IMG/VR virus record: IMGVR_UViG_3300044691_000566
Location: 64,001 to 128,000 of that record
Strand: one strand, 5' to 3'
Length of the DNA stretch: 64,000 nucleotides
Source: a virus
Shown here: positions 7,294-47,236 of the stretch, piece by piece
How the letters are laid out: each line of letters begins with the position of its first letter
Numbering within the stretch: position 1 is the stretch's first letter
The notes under the pieces: model-generated
Databases searched by the model: none
Seen by the model: the letters and a program-made list of their open reading frames with translations, nothing else
What the model was told of the DNA's origin: nothing
Program-made: the position numbers and the translations under genes

Positions 7294-7398
7294 CACGAAG
7301 GCCCCCACCCGATATGGGTGGGGGCCTTCGTGTTGTTCCCCTGCCGTGCCCTGCCATGCCCAGCCTTGCCGCGCCGTGCCGAGGACTTGACTGTATCA
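7294..7398 (-). ncRNA. GGY-NN repeat small RNA unit A (orphan)
   Basis: minus strand TGATACAGTCAAGTCCTC + 8 GGC-NN (AC GC AA TG AT AG AC AG) + hairpin. Confidence 0.8.
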
Positions 7399-8550: not shown

Positions 8551-8649
8551 GACGAAGCCCCCTCCGGTGATCCGGAGGGGGCTTCTCCCTGCCATGCCCT
8601 GCGCTGCCATGCCGCGCCTCGCCATGCCGTGCAAGACCTGACTTTATCA
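8551..8649 (-). ncRNA. GGY-NN repeat small RNA unit B (orphan)
   Basis: TGATAAAGTCAGGTCT + 8 pentamers (AT GA GC AT AG AG AT AG; one CGC variant) + hairpin. Confidence 0.8.
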
Positions 8650-26270: not shown

Positions 26271-26379
26271 GACGAAGGGGGCGGCCGGAGCCGCCCCCTT
26301 CTCCCTGCCATGCCCAGCCATGCCGCGCCATGCCTCACCTTGCCGTGCCAGGCCATGCCCCGAGGACTTGACTATATCA
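26271..26379 (-). ncRNA. GGY-NN repeat small RNA unit C (orphan)
   Basis: TGATATAGTCAAGTCCTCGG + 11 pentamers (AT CT AC AA GA AT GC AT TG AT AG) + hairpin. Confidence 0.82.
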
Positions 26380-37609: not shown

Positions 37610-38182
37610 GAAGGCCCCCGGATTTAAAAATCCGGGGGCCGTTCCCCTGCCCAGCCATGCCACGCCCAGCCAAACCCCACCGTGCCGGGCCATACCATGA
37701 GGCCCTGACTCTATCATCTCCAACGACTGAGGGGCTCCCCGTAGGAAGCCCCTCCCATGCCTTGCCACGCCGAACCGGGCCCTGCCTTGCCCTGCCAGGG
37801 CATGCCAGGGCCTTGACCCTGTCATCTCCAATGGCACCTGTCAAACGACTGAGGGCGCCACCCCGAAGGATGACGCCCTCCCATGCCCCGCCTGGCCCTG
37901 CCAGACCTCGCCACGCCGAGCCTCGCCCAGCCCCGCAAGACCTGACTCTGTCATCCCTGCCCGCATCTGTCAAAGCTGAGGGCGATCACCCGTAGATGAT
38001 CGCCCTCCCATGCCCTGCCCGGCCAAGCCGAGCCGCGCCATGCCTAGCCCTGCAAGACCTGACTCTATCAGCCCCAATGACGAAGGGGCCCGAAGGACCC
38101 CTTCTCCCTGCCCTGCCCGGCCTAGCCCCACCGCGCCAGACCTTGCCCAGCCGTGCCTAGCCACGCGGCCCTGACTCTATCA
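37610..38182 (-). ncRNA. array of five GGY-NN repeat small RNA units (D1-D5)
   Basis: units 37610-37716, 37729-37824, 37851-37953, 37978-38070, 38082-38182; each -10 box + 8-11 pentamers + hairpin. Confidence 0.85.
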
Positions 38183-42688: not shown

Positions 42689-42815
42689 AACCGGACATTA
42701 CGGCCATGATAGGGTCAGGTCCTGCAAGGCACGGCAGGGCTAGGCGAGGTCTGGCAGGGTACGGCTGGGCACGGCAGGGGGAGGGCGATCACCTACGGGT
42801 GGTCGCCCTCCGTTG

Positions 42816-42931
42816 TTGACAGATCCAGTAGGACATGACAGAGTCAAGTCGTCCTCATTCACCTGGGGCGGGCGTCGGTCGATCCGTGGTGCTCCCTTTC
42901 GCAACAAGGGCACGGATTGACCGACGTCTTT
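42816..42931 (+). ncRNA. putative non-repeat structured sRNA driven by the same promoter type
   Basis: TTGACA-N17-CAGAGT then 18-bp stem 42871-42888/42911-42928. Confidence 0.45.
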
Positions 42932-43090
42932 GTACTCCCGTCGGTAACCCTGATAGAGTCAAGTCCTCGGCACGGCTAGGTAGGGCAGGGTTTGGTAGGG
43001 CAGGGAGAAGGGGTCCTCTACGGAGGACCCCTTCGTTTTGCCCCCGCAGGCCCGGTAGAGTCCGGCCTCCACCGTCAGAGAGGACCCTCA

Positions 43091-43300
43091 ATGCCCGACA
43101 GCGAGATCATCAGGGACTGGTACACCTCCAGCGCCTGCGGGGCGAACAACTCCTGCCTGGAGGCCCGCACTTACGCCGACGGGTCGGTCGAGATCCGCAA
43201 CTCCCAGGACCCGAAGGGCACCCTCCTCCGGTTCACCGAGGACGAATGGTCCGCCTTCCTCGTGGGCGCCCGCGCCGGGGAGTTTTCCACCGGGGCATGA
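43091..43300 (+). CDS. DUF397 family protein
   Basis: WYTSSAC..NSCLEA...VEIRNSQDP..LRFT..EWSAFL.G...GEF. Confidence 0.85.
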   Translation: MPDSEIIRDWYTSSACGANNSCLEARTYADGSVEIRNSQDPKGTLLRFTEDEWSAFLVGARAGEFSTGA

Positions 43301-43402
43301 CCTGATAGAGTCAAGTCCTCGGCTAGGCATGGCGGGGCTCGGCTTGGCACGGCAGGGAGAAGGGGTCCACTACGGTGGACCCCTTCGTCGTTGGGAGGAC
43401 GG

Positions 43403-43582
43403 ATGCGCATCGGTCAGGAGCCGCCCCGGCGGGAGAAGCTGCGGGGCTACGTGATCACCGGCTGCATCAAGTGCGGCGGCCGGTCCAAGTGGATCCGGCG
43501 TGGACCGCACGACTGCTGCTTGCGCAAGGACATGAGCCGGGCCCGGGAGAAGCAGGAATGGCGCCGGACCCTCAGGGATTGA
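43403..43582 (+). CDS. small basic Cys-containing protein
   Basis: GGAGG RBS; CIKC; stop overlaps unit E4 promoter. Confidence 0.5.
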   Translation: MRIGQEPPRREKLRGYVITGCIKCGGRSKWIRRGPHDCCLRKDMSRAREKQEWRRTLRD

Positions 43583-43928
43583 TAGAGTCAAGTCCCTGGC
43601 AAGGCTGGCCAAGGCCCGGTAGGGCACGGCTTGGCCCGGCAGGGCAGGGAGAAGAGCCCCACTACGGTGGGGCTCTTCGTCGTTGACGGACCCCGCAGTT
43701 CATGACAGAGTCAAGTCCTGCATGGCCGGGCGGGACGTGGCGCGGTGTGGCATGGCTAGGTAGGGCCGGGCAGGGCATGGGCTGTGGAGATGGGGCCTCT
43801 TTCGGGAGGCCCCATCGTCTTGATAGAGTCAAGTCCCTGGCTGGGCTTGGTATGGCTGGGCTTGGCGTGGTGAGGCATGGCAGGGGGAGAGGGCCCGGAT
43901 TTTTAAATCCGGGCCCTCCGCCATATGG

Positions 43929-43958
43929 TTGACACTCCAGGAATCCTTGGAGTACAGT
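43929..43958 (+). promoter_or_regulatory. sigma70-type promoter of RAMP-like gene
   Basis: TTGACA-N18-TACAGT. Confidence 0.7.
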
Positions 43959-43996
43959 CACCTTCGCCAGAGAACGCCGAGCCCCAGGGAGGGCCC

Positions 43997-44575
43997 ATGC
44001 AGGTCCGTTTGACTCTTACCGGAACCACATCGCTGCTCATGCACAACGCGCGGCTGTCCGACCCGTTGGACCCCTACACCAAGATGCTCAAGGCCATCTC
44101 CTCCAAGCGCACCAAGACGGAGGACGACCACGACGACATGGCGCGCGTCGAATTCCTCGGCGGCCTGTACTTCGACCCGGAGGCCGGGCCGTACGTTCCC
44201 GGCGTCAACGTCCACCGCTGCCTGGTGGAGGGCGCCAAGCTCAACAAGCTGGGCCGCCACGTGGAGCGCGGCATCATCGCCCTGGACGAGATCTGCCCGC
44301 TGGGCTACGCGGGGCCGCGCACGGAGGAGGCGCTGTGGAAGGACAAAAACTTCGTCTCCCGGCTGTCCGTCGGCGTCACCACCTCGCGCGTCATGCGCAC
44401 GCGCCCCGAATTCCCGGTGTGGGGCCTGGAGGCCGACATGCTGGTGGACACCGGCCAGCTCGACCTGGAGCAGGTCCGCACCATCGCCGAGAAGTCCGGA
44501 CAGATGATCGGTCTCGGCGACTACCGTCCCCGGTTCGGGCGATTCACCGTCGAGGTCGTCGAACTCCAGGGCTGA
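43997..44575 (+). CDS. RAMP/Cas7-like RRM protein, putative effector of the GGY-NN RNAs
   Basis: N-terminal strand LTLTGTTSLLMHN, PYVPGVNVHRCL (cf. RAMP IPGSxxKG), C-terminal G-rich loop GLGDYRPRFGRF. Confidence 0.7.
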   Translation: MQVRLTLTGTTSLLMHNARLSDPLDPYTKMLKAISSKRTKTEDDHDDMARVEFLGGLYFDPEAGPYVPGVNVHRCLVEGAKLNKLGRHVERGIIALDEICPLGYAGPRTEEALWKDKNFVSRLSVGVTTSRVMRTRPEFPVWGLEADMLVDTGQLDLEQVRTIAEKSGQMIGLGDYRPRFGRFTVEVVELQG

Positions 44576-44614
44576 TCCCGCCAGAATCTGTACCACCGAA
44601 CAGAAGGAGGACGA

Positions 44615-45178
44615 ATGGCCGCCAAGCCGTTCGAGCCCAAGGGCGATGTCGCCCGCTGGGTCCCCGTCTACGAGAATCTGCGCGACCTGGAGCCGGGGGT
44701 GCTGGTCACGTACGAGCAGCTCTCGGAGTGGGCCGGAGTCGATGTCCGGCGCGACCGCAGCCCCCTCGTGCAGGCCGAGGACAAGCTCCTGAAGGAGCAC
44801 GGGCGCGGCGTCGCCAACGAGCGGGGCGTGGGGTACCGGATCATGCTGGCCTCCGAACACGGTGAGGCCGCCCGGCGCCAGACCCGGAAGGCCGACCGCC
44901 GGATCAGGAAGGCCATAACCCTTCTGACCGTGGCCGACCGCAATCACCTGACCCCGCAGCAGCGGCAGAAGTACGAGAGTCAGGCCGGGGCTCTCCAGGC
45001 CGTCCGGGACATGACCAACCGCCTGGCGCGGCGGACGGCCGCGCTGGAGGAGGGTCTGAAAGCGGTCCGTCGGGAGACCAAGGAGACCACGGCCGGTCTG
45101 TCCGACCGCTTGGAGCGGCTGGAGGCCCGGTTCGCGAACGTTCCGGGCGATGCCCCGGCGGACAGCACCACGACCTGA
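44615..45178 (+). CDS. winged-HTH-like + coiled-coil protein co-transcribed with RAMP-like gene
   Basis: VTYEQLSEWAG...NERGVGYRI; long amphipathic helix. Confidence 0.6.
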   Translation: MAAKPFEPKGDVARWVPVYENLRDLEPGVLVTYEQLSEWAGVDVRRDRSPLVQAEDKLLKEHGRGVANERGVGYRIMLASEHGEAARRQTRKADRRIRKAITLLTVADRNHLTPQQRQKYESQAGALQAVRDMTNRLARRTAALEEGLKAVRRETKETTAGLSDRLERLEARFANVPGDAPADSTTT

Positions 45179-45193
45179 TAAGGTCACCCCCAT

Positions 45194-45211
45194 CGGGATT
45201 TTAAAATCCCG
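45194..45211. promoter_or_regulatory. perfect palindrome CGGGATTTTAAAATCCCG
   Basis: 18-bp palindrome; core recurs about 9 times in window. Confidence 0.55.
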
Positions 45212-45309
45212 CACAGACGACAGGCCCGTTCATGGGGAACGGGCCTGTCGTCATGTCCGGAGTCCTCCAAGCCCGGCGAAGAGGTGAAACCGCACCTCTG
45301 GAGGACGTC

Positions 45310-47084: not shown

Positions 47085-47170
47085 TGATAGAGTCAGGGCC
47101 TCGGTATGGCTGGGCCGGGCTCGGCTGGTCGGGGCATGGCAGGGGAGGCCCCCACTTCGGTGGGGGCCTC
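47085..47170 (+). ncRNA. GGY-NN repeat small RNA unit F (orphan)
   Basis: TGATAGAGTCAGGGCCTC + 8 pentamers (AT TG CG TC TG GG AT AG; one GTC variant) + hairpin. Confidence 0.8.
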
Positions 47171-47236
47171 AGCCGTGTCCGGGGTCCGGCGAGCCCGGTG
47201 AAGGGGTGAAGAGATCCCCTTGACCCGGAGGCCGAC

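What the first reader, a model, noticed from the sequence alone, without database searches (positions are those of the whole stretch)
42707..45178. Candidate non-CRISPR RNA-guided system: GGY-NN small RNA array plus RAMP/Cas7-like effector
Seen: six units (E1-E6), each a -10 box, 7-11 pentamers with fixed GGY and variable NN, and a hairpin. They lie immediately upstream of a separately promoted 192-aa gene and a wHTH gene, as an island inside the neck/tail region. Nine more units occur elsewhere in the window. Known: RAMP/Cas7 proteins polymerise along guide RNAs with a fixed nucleotide period. Inference: one protomer binds each GGY while the NN dinucleotides form a discontinuous guide, giving programmable targeting of, for example, competing phages or host genes. 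No cas1/cas2, nuclease or repeat-spacer array is present. From memory this resembles the recently reported phage 'VIPR' (GGY/NN) architecture. I cannot verify that here, so it should be checked before claiming novelty.
Basis: partly seen in the sequence, partly recalled or inferred. Interest (0 to 1): 0.97.

Follow-up and report, generated by a model that had tools for sequence, protein, structure and literature searches.

The report
Actinophage VIPR system targeting host defences
This is a genuine VIPR system (a phage-borne, CRISPR-related RNA-guided DNA silencer first described in 2026) in a complete 160-kb Streptomyces-type phage, and at least two of its six local guide RNAs are predicted to match host anti-phage defence genes, a target class not reported for VIPR in the three papers I found.

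Summary
The window holds 15 GGYNN small-RNA genes and the 159,746-bp phage genome holds 20. Each has its own promoter, 7-11 units and a GC hairpin. Six lie just upstream of a separately promoted 192-aa gene and a winged-helix gene.

The 192-aa protein matches the solved SUSP1 Vipr protein (PDB 36pp, E 4.6e-40) and keeps its GGY-reading residues. Its model has a Cas7/Csm3-like fold. The next gene is homologous to the genes that follow vipr in relatives (vap1-like). VIPR is already published (three 2026 bioRxiv preprints), so the system is a member of a known kind.

What is new is the predicted target set. Under the published one-base-skip rule no guide matches the phage itself.
- Guide E5 matches helicase motif III of ttrA-like telomere helicases and type ISP-like restriction enzymes: 123 of 251 Streptomyces genomes, against one control hit.
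- Guide E4 matches the DinG helicase of the PIWI-RE Argonaute operon: 7 of 7 genomes carrying that subfamily. An unrelated VIPR locus has a guide for the same site.
- A guide at 38108-38162 matches Ro60/TROVE genes.
- E1, E2 and E3 have no clear target; E6 has one tentative hit.

Other notes of this scan on the same genome flagged this locus and two of its guides.

The parts
42707..42811 (+). vrRNA gene E1: extended -10 promoter 42707-42715, about 10-11 GGYNN units 42723-42777 (the first is degenerate), capping hairpin 42778-42811
   Evidence: No recurrent target in 151 plus 41 Streptomyces genomes. The one IMG/VR hit is in a 46% GC contig, so chance.
42836..42950 (+). Promoter (TTGACA, 17 nt, CAGAGT) followed by a roughly 100-nt transcript with an 18-bp hairpin and no GGY repeats. 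Function unknown; it sits inside the array.
   Evidence: promoter motif; fold, -48.8 kcal/mol; no Rfam family at gathering score.
42951..43034 (+). vrRNA gene E2: promoter 42951-42959, 7 units 42969-43003 (only 5 variable), hairpin 43004-43034
   Evidence: Too few informative positions for target prediction; not searched.
43091..43300 (+). 69-aa DUF397 gene lying between vrRNA genes E2 and E3
   Evidence: Pfam PF04149, E 1.2e-14.
43303..43386 (+). vrRNA gene E3: promoter 43303-43311, 7 units 43321-43355, hairpin 43356-43386
   Evidence: Target search at chance level: 12 hits against 9 control hits in 31 genomes.
43403..43582 (+). 59-aa Cys-containing ORF between E3 and E4; no family
   Evidence: no Pfam match.
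43580..43681 (+). vrRNA gene E4: promoter 43580-43588, 10 units 43598-43647, hairpin 43648-43681. The first 8 NN match the DinG-like helicase gene of the PIWI-RE Argonaute operon.
   Evidence: An independent guide in L009 matches the same site.
43703..43826 (+). vrRNA gene E5: TTGACG -35 plus CAGAGT -10, 11 units 43724-43778, hairpin up to 43826. The first 9 NN match helicase motif III of ttrA-like helicases and type ISP-like restriction-modification enzymes.
43821..43922 (+). vrRNA gene E6: promoter 43821-43829, 9 units 43839-43883, hairpin 43884-43922. One tentative target in a HigA-like XRE gene of a 63% GC viral contig.
   Evidence: 0 of 121 Streptomyces genomes.
43929..43958 (+). Sigma-70-type promoter of vipr (TTGACA, 18 nt, TACAGT)
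   Evidence: 10 of 12 matches; shuffles give a mean of 0.2 sites.
43997..44575 (+). vipr: 192-aa RAMP protein, the only copy in the genome
   Evidence: PDB 36pp_D 'SUSP1 Vipr protein', E 4.6e-40, residues 4-188. Key residues conserved. AF2 pLDDT 94.8. Foldseek top hits are Csm3/Cmr4/type VII Cas7. Single copy.
44615..45178 (+). vap (vap1-like): 187-aa winged-helix protein with a long coiled-coil tail
   Evidence: Homologous to the gene that directly follows vipr in LittleE (E 9e-14), Trine, MakoManhole and wV8 (E 5e-5), and in 16 actinobacterial or related loci. AF2 topology a1-b1-a2-a3-b2-b3 plus two long helices. Weak Foldseek hits, nearly all winged-helix regulators.
47085..47174 (+). Dispersed vrRNA gene (8 units 47103-47142)
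37610..38182 (-). Second cluster of five vrRNA genes: 38079-38182, 37978-38070, 37851-37953, 37729-37824, 37610-37716. The first matches Ro60/TROVE genes. The last gives a 15/16 match in a beta-class DNA methyltransferase gene.
   Evidence: targets (TROVE; methyltransferase, suggestive only). The guide at 37851-37953 has no target.
26271..26379 (-). Dispersed vrRNA gene (11 units 26305-26359)
   Evidence: No target in 41 Streptomyces genomes.
8551..8649 (-). Dispersed vrRNA gene (9 units 8589-8633)
7294..7398 (-). Dispersed vrRNA gene (8 units 7341-7380)

Best explanation
The locus is the core of a VIPR system, most like type II of Escherichia phage SUSP1, in a complete 159,746-bp actinophage.

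A single vipr gene encodes a minimal Cas7-like RAMP. By homology to SUSP1 Vipr, one protomer binds each GGY triplet of a vrRNA and presents the two following bases. The filament reads double-stranded DNA as NN-x-NN-x (one base skipped) and blocks transcription. The winged-helix Vap protein probably assists on DNA.

Here the guides are 20 separate small genes, six of them next to vipr. Each has a host-type promoter and ends in a GC hairpin that probably serves as both 3' cap and terminator. The last two units are semi-constant and look like part of the handle; the 5-9 units before them carry the specificity.

Decoded with the published rule, the guides avoid the phage's own DNA and fall in frame, with the skipped base at the wobble position, on conserved motifs of host-side genes:
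- E5 falls on helicase motif III (RLYMTATPR), shared by type ISP-like restriction enzymes and telomere-proximal ttrA-like helicases.
- E4 falls on the DinG helicase of the PIWI-RE Argonaute operon, upstream of the Argonaute gene, so a roadblock there would be polar on it.
- A guide at 38108-38162 falls on Ro60/TROVE genes.

I therefore infer that this phage uses VIPR at least partly as a programmable silencer of host defence and host-side genes.

Shown here: the sequence anatomy, the homology, the fold and the target matches. Inferred: expression, RNP assembly, silencing and any benefit to the phage. My odds: VIPR membership 0.97; the three recurrent target matches are real, non-chance targets 0.85; silencing them serves counter-defence 0.55.
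For: Membership:
- phmmer against the PDB gives only 'SUSP1 Vipr protein' (36pp_D), E 4.6e-40, over the full length.
- Residues shown in SUSP1 to read GGY or the skipped base are kept: H17, K33, R138, D177 and R179 are identical, and W178 becomes Y.
- The AF2 model has pLDDT 94.8. Its best PDB folds are all Cas7-family (Csm3, Cmr4, type VII Cas7), probability 1.0.
- There are 20 GGYNN arrays against 0-3 in shuffles.
- GGYNN arrays flank vipr in the four phages (MakoManhole, Trine, LittleE, wV8) and the two IMG/VR sisters I listed array by array.
- The vap gene is homologous to the gene after vipr in relatives.
- The genome has no Cas1 and the window has no CRISPR-like array.

Targets:
- No guide matches the phage genome above the level of shuffled guides, and the phage has no homolog of any target protein.
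- E5: 123 of 251 Streptomyces genomes have a site with at most 3 mismatches of 22, against one control hit. The first 9 NN are usually 18/18. Sites near chromosome ends lie in ResIII + Helicase_C + HA helicases, which is ttrA-like (literature). Internal sites lie in full-length type IIG/ISP-like R-M enzymes (PADLOC, 2260 bits). 52 IMG/VR contigs carry the exact 18-base core, mostly in 1400-1700-aa ORFs.
- E4: the seven genomes with the site are exactly the seven with the best-scoring PprDinG genes among 51 searched. Its neighbours are PprPIWI, PprRE and PprPDDEXK. A guide in an independent VIPR locus, L009 (Vipr 53% identical, different flanks), matches the same site 16/16.
- TROVE guide: 21 exact 18/18 sites in 20 of 41 genomes, against 5 control hits, plus 18 viral contigs.
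Against: - Nothing here shows that the RNAs are made, that they bind Vipr, or that any target is silenced.
- The true host is unknown. Streptomyces is inferred from the closest cellular Vipr homologs, the DUF397 gene and a tail protein similar to that of a Streptomyces phage.
- Four of the six local guides (E1, E2, E3, E6) have no convincing target. So do the guides at 26305-26359 and 37883-37937.
- The E5 motif is shared by ttrA, a conjugation or telomere helicase that is not a defence gene. TROVE genes also occur in viral contigs. The targets therefore also fit the published inter-element conflict role.
- The defence function of PIWI-RE is predicted, not demonstrated, as far as I know.
- The target sites lie inside coding regions, one of them near the 3' end (TROVE, residue about 487 of 530), where a roadblock may matter less.
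- Assignment to type II rests on 39% identity to SUSP1 Vipr and weak Vap similarity, not on a tree.
Confidence: 0.85

Rival explanations
1. The system is a standard VIPR used only for conflict between mobile elements, as published. On this view the matched genes matter because they ride on competitors: ttrA on linear plasmids and telomeric transposons, TROVE on rival phages, and R-M or Argonaute islands on mobile defence islands. Lowering host immunity is not the point.
For: - ttrA is needed for conjugal transfer of linear plasmids, sits on plasmids and telomeric transposons, and is itself a favoured target of telomeric CRISPR-associated transposons.
- The TROVE guide core occurs exactly in 18 viral contigs, and the E5 core in 52.
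- Another note of this scan reports that a guide outside this window matches dinG of related phages.
- All published natural targets are satellites, prophages or other VIPR systems.
Against: - The internal E5 sites are in complete single-chain restriction-modification enzymes, and the E4 site is in an Argonaute operon. These are immunity genes, not replication or life-cycle genes of a competitor.
- TROVE sites sit at a syntenic position about a quarter of the way along several complete chromosomes.
- No convergence of several guides on one element was seen, unlike the SUSP1 case.
Confidence: 0.3
2. The VIPR system is real, but the predicted targets are artefacts. Short gapped patterns might simply find conserved, codon-structured motifs by chance, and the true targets are elsewhere or unknown.
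For: - Guides specify only 10-18 informative bases.
- Homologous sites in many genomes count as one evolutionary event.
- Several guides gave only chance-level hits.
- The control used by the tool (the pattern read backwards) does not preserve codon structure.
Against: - My rough estimate for an exact 16-18-base gapped match in the sequence searched is 0.01-0.05 per guide, assuming independent bases at genome composition. Three of nine guides tested gave one.
- All three are in frame with the skipped base at the wobble position.
- Shuffling the NN order abolishes the hits on the fetched loci.
- E4 hits 7 of 7 members of one gene subfamily and none of the 38 genomes that lack a PprDinG gene.
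- An independent VIPR locus carries a guide for the same site in a shifted register.
Confidence: 0.1
3. The guides regulate the phage's own genes, for example temporal control of the late genes around the tail region where the island sits.
For: vrRNA genes are scattered through the genome next to structural and other genes, and they use the same promoter type as other phage transcripts.
Against: No guide matches the phage genome better than guides with shuffled NN order. The best self matches are 64-86% and none exceeds the shuffled maximum. The published systems also show no self-targeting.
Confidence: 0.03

Closest known systems
VIPR type II of Escherichia phage SUSP1 (bioRxiv 10.64898/2026.04.26.720920, 10.64898/2026.04.26.720927, 10.64898/2026.10.15.759431; PDB 36pp)
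   Same: - Homologous Vipr protein: 39% identity, E 4.6e-40, with the same GGY-reading residues.
- GGY/NN vrRNAs of similar length.
- An adjacent, weakly homologous DNA-binding vap gene.
- A phage-borne two-gene core without cas genes.
- The one-base-skip rule gives in-frame, wobble-aligned, non-self targets.
   Different: - 20 vrRNA genes instead of 4, most of them far from vipr and on both strands.
- Each is a separate promoter-to-hairpin unit.
- The 3' tail is a simple GC hairpin of variable sequence, not the conserved pseudoknot.
- Two semi-constant terminal units.
- Some arrays have only 7 units, whereas 9-16 are reported.
- Predicted targets are host restriction and Argonaute genes, ttrA and TROVE, rather than one satellite.
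VIPR of the Pseudomonas fulva prophage clade (same preprint)
   Same: Same type of core. Guides aimed at conserved coding motifs of resident elements, including transcription regulators. The tentative E6 target, a HigA-like XRE gene, would fit this pattern.
   Different: Those guides concentrate on one prophage locus. Here, no two of the guides examined fell on the same fetched target locus.
Cas7 backbone of class 1 CRISPR effectors (Csm3, Cmr4, type VII Cas7)
   Same: RRM core, thumb and glycine-rich loop fold. One protomer per fixed RNA period. Best structural matches in the PDB.
   Different: Only about 10-14% sequence identity. No Cas10, Cas5, Cas6, Cas1 or Cas2, no repeat-spacer array, no acquisition module. 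The period is 5 nt with 2 read bases, not 6 nt with 5.
Phage-encoded nucleic-acid-guided counter-measures, e.g. the CRISPR-Cas system of Vibrio phage ICP1 that targets the host PLE island (own knowledge, not checked here)
   Same: A phage carries a programmable guide system directed at host-resident anti-phage genes.
   Different: ICP1 uses a full type I-F CRISPR-Cas system that destroys DNA and acquires spacers. Here there is a minimal, nuclease-free silencer with hard-wired guides.

Membership tests
VIPR | Vipr protein: a minimal RAMP homologous to the described Vipr family | tested here: met
   phmmer against the PDB finds only 36pp_D 'SUSP1 Vipr protein', E 4.6e-40, residues 4-188 of 192. 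130 phage records and 83 cellular loci have homologs.
VIPR | RAMP fold (RRM core, thumb, G-loop) and conservation of the residues that read GGY and the skipped base | tested here: met
   AF2 pLDDT 94.8. Foldseek top hits are Csm3/Cmr4/Cas7, probability 1.0, TM about 0.5. SUSP1 H17, K33, R138, D177 and R179 are identical and W178 becomes Y. The pyrimidine-pocket residues E71/M72 are not kept.
VIPR | vrRNAs: at least 4 tandem YNNGG/GGYNN units with conserved GGY and variable NN, near vipr | tested here: met
   Six arrays within 1.3 kb upstream of vipr, 15 in the window, 20 in the genome; shuffles give 0-3.
VIPR | Conserved structured 3' tail capping the repeat tract | tested here: met
   All 20 units end in GGRRA plus a perfect 11-17 bp hairpin whose stem sequence differs between units. 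The form differs from the SUSP1 pseudoknot.
VIPR | Minimal locus: vipr plus one vap gene, no cas genes, no CRISPR array | tested here: met
   The vap homolog directly follows vipr. No Cas1 in the genome. No repeat-spacer array among the tandem repeats of the window. Other cas families were not searched one by one.
VIPR | Guides obey the one-base-skip rule, match non-self DNA and do not match their own genome | tested here: met
   No self match above shuffled level. Recurrent in-frame targets for E4, E5 and the guide at 38108-38162.
VIPR | vrRNAs are expressed, co-purify with Vipr, and the RNP binds and silences double-stranded DNA | not testable with these tools
   Needs small-RNA sequencing, pull-down and reporter assays.
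VIPR type II (SUSP1 / P. fulva type, vap1) | Position in the Vipr tree and presence of vap1 | tested here: inconclusive
   Closest solved or characterised relative is SUSP1 Vipr at 39% identity. Vap resembles the wV8 gene after vipr only weakly (26% over 115 aa, E 5e-5 in a small database).
CRISPR-Cas class 1 (type III-like) | CRISPR repeat-spacer array, Cas10 or large subunit, adaptation genes | tested here: not met
   No array, no Cas1. Only fold-level similarity of one protein to Cas7.

The most novel reading that the evidence does not exclude
This phage uses VIPR as a programmable counter-defence and host-takeover tool. Hard-wired guides silence host immunity genes: type ISP-like restriction enzymes through helicase motif III, and the PIWI-RE Argonaute operon through its DinG gene. 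They also silence other host-side genes (ttrA, Ro60/TROVE). Aiming at codons of conserved protein motifs would let one guide cover many host strains. This would be the first case of VIPR directed at cellular defence genes rather than at rival mobile elements. The same DinG site is also hit by a guide from an unrelated VIPR locus, which suggests the strategy is shared among actinobacterial VIPR systems.
Probability: 0.5. Interest if true: 0.85.

Novelty: new variant of a known kind. Interest (0 to 1): 0.7.

Why it matters
VIPR was described only in 2026 and has so far been characterised in Escherichia and Pseudomonas elements, as a weapon between phages, satellites and prophages. This locus extends it to a large high-GC actinophage with a much larger repertoire than the four vrRNAs characterised in SUSP1: 20 guides served by one vipr gene.

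It also shows a different way of organising guides, as stand-alone promoter-to-hairpin genes spread over the genome. And it gives concrete, testable predicted targets in host immunity genes. If these hold, phages have a transcription-silencing analogue of anti-CRISPR or anti-restriction proteins that is programmable by two-base codon words. That would bear on how phage host range evolves in antibiotic-producing Streptomyces.

The semi-constant last two units and the 7-unit guides would also help to define the minimal functional vrRNA.

Tried and rejected
- **Self-targeting.** All 20 guides scored against the phage genome sit at the level of shuffled guides.
- **Convergence of guides on one element.** The other 19 guides do not hit the 20-kb surroundings of ttrA sites, the PIWI-RE loci or the L130 contig.
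- **E1.** 1 of 151 genomes (20 bases, at most 2 mismatches) and 0 of 41 (18 bases). The one IMG/VR hit is in a 46% GC contig and out of frame.
- **E4 in IMG/VR.** The single exact hit is in a 48% GC contig, so chance.
- **E5 full 22-base pattern in IMG/VR.** No exact hit, because the last two units do not pair.
- **E6.** 0 of 121 Streptomyces genomes. 58 IMG/VR hits, nearly all in AT-rich contigs. Only the L130 hit is kept, as tentative.
- **E3.** 12 hits against 9 control hits.
- **E2.** Not searched; only 10 variable bases.
- **Guide 37883-37937.** One hit that is not in an ORF.
- **Guide 26305-26359.** No hit.
- **Family libraries.** Pfam and PADLOC give nothing for Vipr or Vap. Rfam gives nothing at gathering score for the array.
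- **Other searches.** Megablast of the locus against the phage collection gave no match. The generic terminator scan finds no hairpin followed by a T-run. The Foldseek search for Vap has no hit below E 0.001. A literature search for experimental work on PIWI-RE gave nothing usable.
- **Not run.** No complex-prediction job was sent.
Full report
**What is there.** The window is bases 64001-128000 of a complete 159,746-bp virus genome with direct terminal repeats. It is 67% G+C.

A phase-aware scan for GGY-NN pentamers finds 15 arrays in the window and 20 true arrays in the genome. Shuffled genomes give 0-3. The six arrays of the finding lie between 42707 and 43922 on the + strand. A second cluster of five lies at 37610-38182 on the - strand. 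Single units lie at 47085, 26379, 8649 and 7398.

Every unit begins with a promoter of one of two kinds. One is an extended -10 (TGnTAGAGT) without a -35. The other is TTGACA, 17 nt, then CAGAGT. This either/or pattern is what a housekeeping-sigma promoter would show.

A transcript starting about 7 nt after the -10 would carry a few leader bases and then 7-11 GGYNN units. It would end in a perfect 11-17 bp GC hairpin whose stem sequence differs from unit to unit. Thirteen of the 20 loops are UACG, UUCG or UCCG. No T-run follows the hairpins. Predicted RNA lengths are about 70-100 nt. Rfam has no family for these RNAs.

**The proteins.** The 192-aa ORF (43997-44575) has its own TTGACA-18-TACAGT promoter and no Pfam or PADLOC match.
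- Against the PDB sequences it hits a single entry, 36pp chain D, 'SUSP1 Vipr protein', at E 4.6e-40 over its whole length.
- The structure preprint names the residues that read the two guanines, the pyrimidine and the skipped target base. H17, K33, R138, D177 and R179 are identical here, and W178 is a tyrosine.
- An AlphaFold model built from 23 homologs has pLDDT 94.8. Its best structural matches are all Cas7-family proteins (Csm3, Cmr4, type VII Cas7) at probability 1.0.
- It is the only copy in the genome, and there is no Cas1.

The next ORF (44615-45178) resembles the gene that directly follows vipr in Mycobacterium phage LittleE, Gordonia phages Trine and MakoManhole, and, weakly, Escherichia phage wV8. 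The same holds in 16 mostly actinobacterial loci. Its model is a winged helix followed by two long helices. Foldseek matches are weak but almost all are winged-helix regulators.

**Is it VIPR?** Three 2026 preprints describe VIPR. It comprises a phage-borne minimal RAMP (Vipr), an accessory vap gene and vrRNAs of alternating GGY/NN. One protomer binds per repeat, and double-stranded DNA is recognised with one base skipped between the NN pairs. The outcome is transcriptional silencing. The locus meets every feature I could test (see the membership table).

Co-occurrence also holds. GGYNN arrays flank vipr in four phage relatives and two IMG/VR sisters at 73-76% identity. The automated scan also counted arrays in every one of the 16 loci L005-L020, which include those two sisters. 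Vipr homologs occur in at least 83 species genomes, the closest in Streptomyces at 56%.

**What differs from the described systems.**
- SUSP1 has four vrRNAs next to vipr, each with a pseudoknot tail. Here one vipr gene serves 20 monocistronic vrRNA genes spread over 94 kb on both strands, each with a simple hairpin tail.
- The last two units of almost every array are semi-constant (GGCAN GGCA[G/T]) and did not pair with the targets found below.
- E2 and E3 have only seven units, so five variable ones.
- A DUF397 gene, a small Cys-containing ORF and a promoter-driven hairpin RNA without GGY repeats are interleaved with the array.

**Targets.** I turned each guide into the pattern NN-x-NN-x in guide orientation and searched both strands. 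No guide matches the phage's own genome better than guides with shuffled NN order. This agrees with the published absence of self-targeting.

A lead from another note of this scan (e1-5735400) was that E5, read antisense as codons, spells a helicase motif III. I tested this.
- With at most 3 mismatches of 22, the E5 pattern occurs in 123 of 251 sampled Streptomyces genomes. The control (the pattern read backwards) occurs once.
- The first nine NN are usually 18/18 and the mismatches fall in the last two units.
- Many sites lie 1-5 kb from both ends of complete linear chromosomes. They sit in 750-990-aa helicases with ResIII, Helicase_C and HA domains. This is the ttrA family: subtelomeric, transcribed inwards, needed for conjugal transfer of linear plasmids, and a favoured target of telomeric CRISPR-associated transposons.
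- The four internal chromosomal sites that I fetched lie in 1356-1709-aa frames. The two that I ran against PADLOC match the type IIG/ISP-like restriction-modification model end to end at about 2260 bits.
- The exact 18-base core also occurs in 52 IMG/VR contigs of 37-72% G+C, mostly in 1400-1700-aa ORFs.

So E5 addresses the codons of a motif (RLYMTATPR) shared by ttrA-like helicases and helicase-containing restriction enzymes.

E4 gave 18 hits against 5 control hits in 51 genomes.
- Seven hits are one homologous site. The first eight NN match 16/16 or 15/16, in frame and antisense, spelling MGNVLGFQ.
- The gene is a 1164-aa PprDinG (PADLOC E 8e-256; Pfam pPIWI_RE_Z). It lies between PprRE/PprPDDEXK and the PIWI-RE Argonaute gene, and upstream of the Argonaute gene.
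- A family search of the same 51 genomes shows 13 with a PprDinG. The seven best-scoring ones are exactly the seven with the E4 site.
- Scanning the vrRNAs of 16 other VIPR loci against my target loci gave one hit. A guide in L009, a Streptantibioticus MAG whose Vipr is 53% identical, matches the same site 16/16. Its register is shifted by one unit, its GGY units are degenerate and its flanks differ. Two independent VIPR systems therefore point at the same place in PprDinG.

The guide at 38108-38162 (- strand) matches 18/18 at 21 sites in 20 of 41 genomes, against 5 control hits. The match is in the sense orientation, in frame, and spells YTWNLAGYR near the C-terminus of a roughly 530-aa TROVE (Ro60-like) protein. 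The same site occurs in TROVE genes of 18 viral contigs.

The guide at 37647-37696 gives 15/16 matches in the conserved TQKPV motif of a beta-class DNA methyltransferase in 2 of 31 genomes. This is suggestive only.

E6 has one exact 16-base hit in a 63% G+C viral contig, in frame on the recognition helix of a HigA-like XRE protein. It has none in 121 Streptomyces genomes, so I treat it as tentative.

E1, E3 and the guides at 26305-26359 and 37883-37937 gave nothing above chance. E2 was not searched. The phage encodes no homolog of any target protein.

**Reading.** The matches are too many and too specific to be chance. They are in frame, the skipped base falls at the wobble position, they are lost on shuffling, they are specific to a gene subfamily, and one is hit independently by another system.

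Two of the six guides beside vipr point at genes of anti-phage systems, and one of those (E5) also points at ttrA. Neither the full text of the discovery preprint nor term counts over all three VIPR papers held in the library turned up restriction enzymes, Argonaute or anti-defence as VIPR targets. I rate a counter-defence role at roughly even odds.

The main alternative is the published role of conflict between mobile elements. ttrA (plasmids, telomeric transposons) and the phage-borne TROVE genes fit it well. Both roles may hold for different guides.

Why a phage would silence Ro60 is open. Ro60 with Y RNA is known to direct degradation of structured RNAs (own knowledge). This phage makes many structured small RNAs, which would be one motive, but I did not test it.

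**Verdict.** The system is a member of the published VIPR kind. It has a distinctive guide organisation and a predicted target class that the papers I read do not report.

Noticed in passing
window 42836-42950 (+): A unit with the same promoter type as the vrRNA genes (TTGACA, 17 nt, CAGAGT) but no GGY repeats. Its roughly 100-nt transcript folds into an 18-bp hairpin (-48.8 kcal/mol). It sits between E1 and E2. No Rfam match.
   Followed up: partly
window 43091-43300 and 43403-43582 (+): Two small protein genes are interleaved with the vrRNA genes. One is a 69-aa DUF397 protein, a family typical of Streptomyces developmental regulators of the BldB type (own knowledge). The other is a 59-aa Cys-containing ORF without a family.
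   Followed up: partly
L001 1694-3063, L002 3634-3802, L003 2669-4440 (Gordonia phages MakoManhole and Trine, Mycobacterium phage LittleE): In these relatives the vrRNA tails are not hairpins. They contain a tRNA T-arm-like GGTTCGAnTCC element, which suggests tRNA-type processing of arrays. This tail architecture is not among the array types named in the sections of the discovery preprint that I read.
   Followed up: no
window 43895-43912, 37620-37640 and 45193-45212: A palindrome of the type GGATTTTTAAATCC forms the loop region of the E6 tail hairpin and of the 37716 unit's tail hairpin, and recurs just after the vap stop codon. The same motif appears elsewhere in the genome, so it may be a phage-specific terminator or protein-binding site.
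   Followed up: no
L238-L255 (IMG/VR contigs): Eighteen high-GC viral contigs carry full-length TROVE/Ro60-like genes, 49-63% identical to the Streptomyces gene. Ro60 homologs therefore seem common on actinobacterial (pro)viral contigs.
   Followed up: partly
L009 2329-2400: In this Streptantibioticus MAG locus a vrRNA with degenerate GGY units runs directly into the start codon of vap, with no hairpin between them. The 4-kb contig holds nine arrays.
   Followed up: partly
L061 and L062 (Sorangium sp. So ce134 chromosome, 2.81-2.82 Mb): Two Vipr homologs (30% identity to the query) lie about 8 kb apart in one myxobacterial chromosome.
   Followed up: no
genome 9947-52257, outside the window: The early-operon promoters carry, just downstream of their -10 box, the reverse complement of the TGACAGAGTCA motif that forms the vrRNA promoters. 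The motif is a near-palindrome (TGAC nnn GTCA), so it could also be a binding site for a regulator.
   Followed up: no
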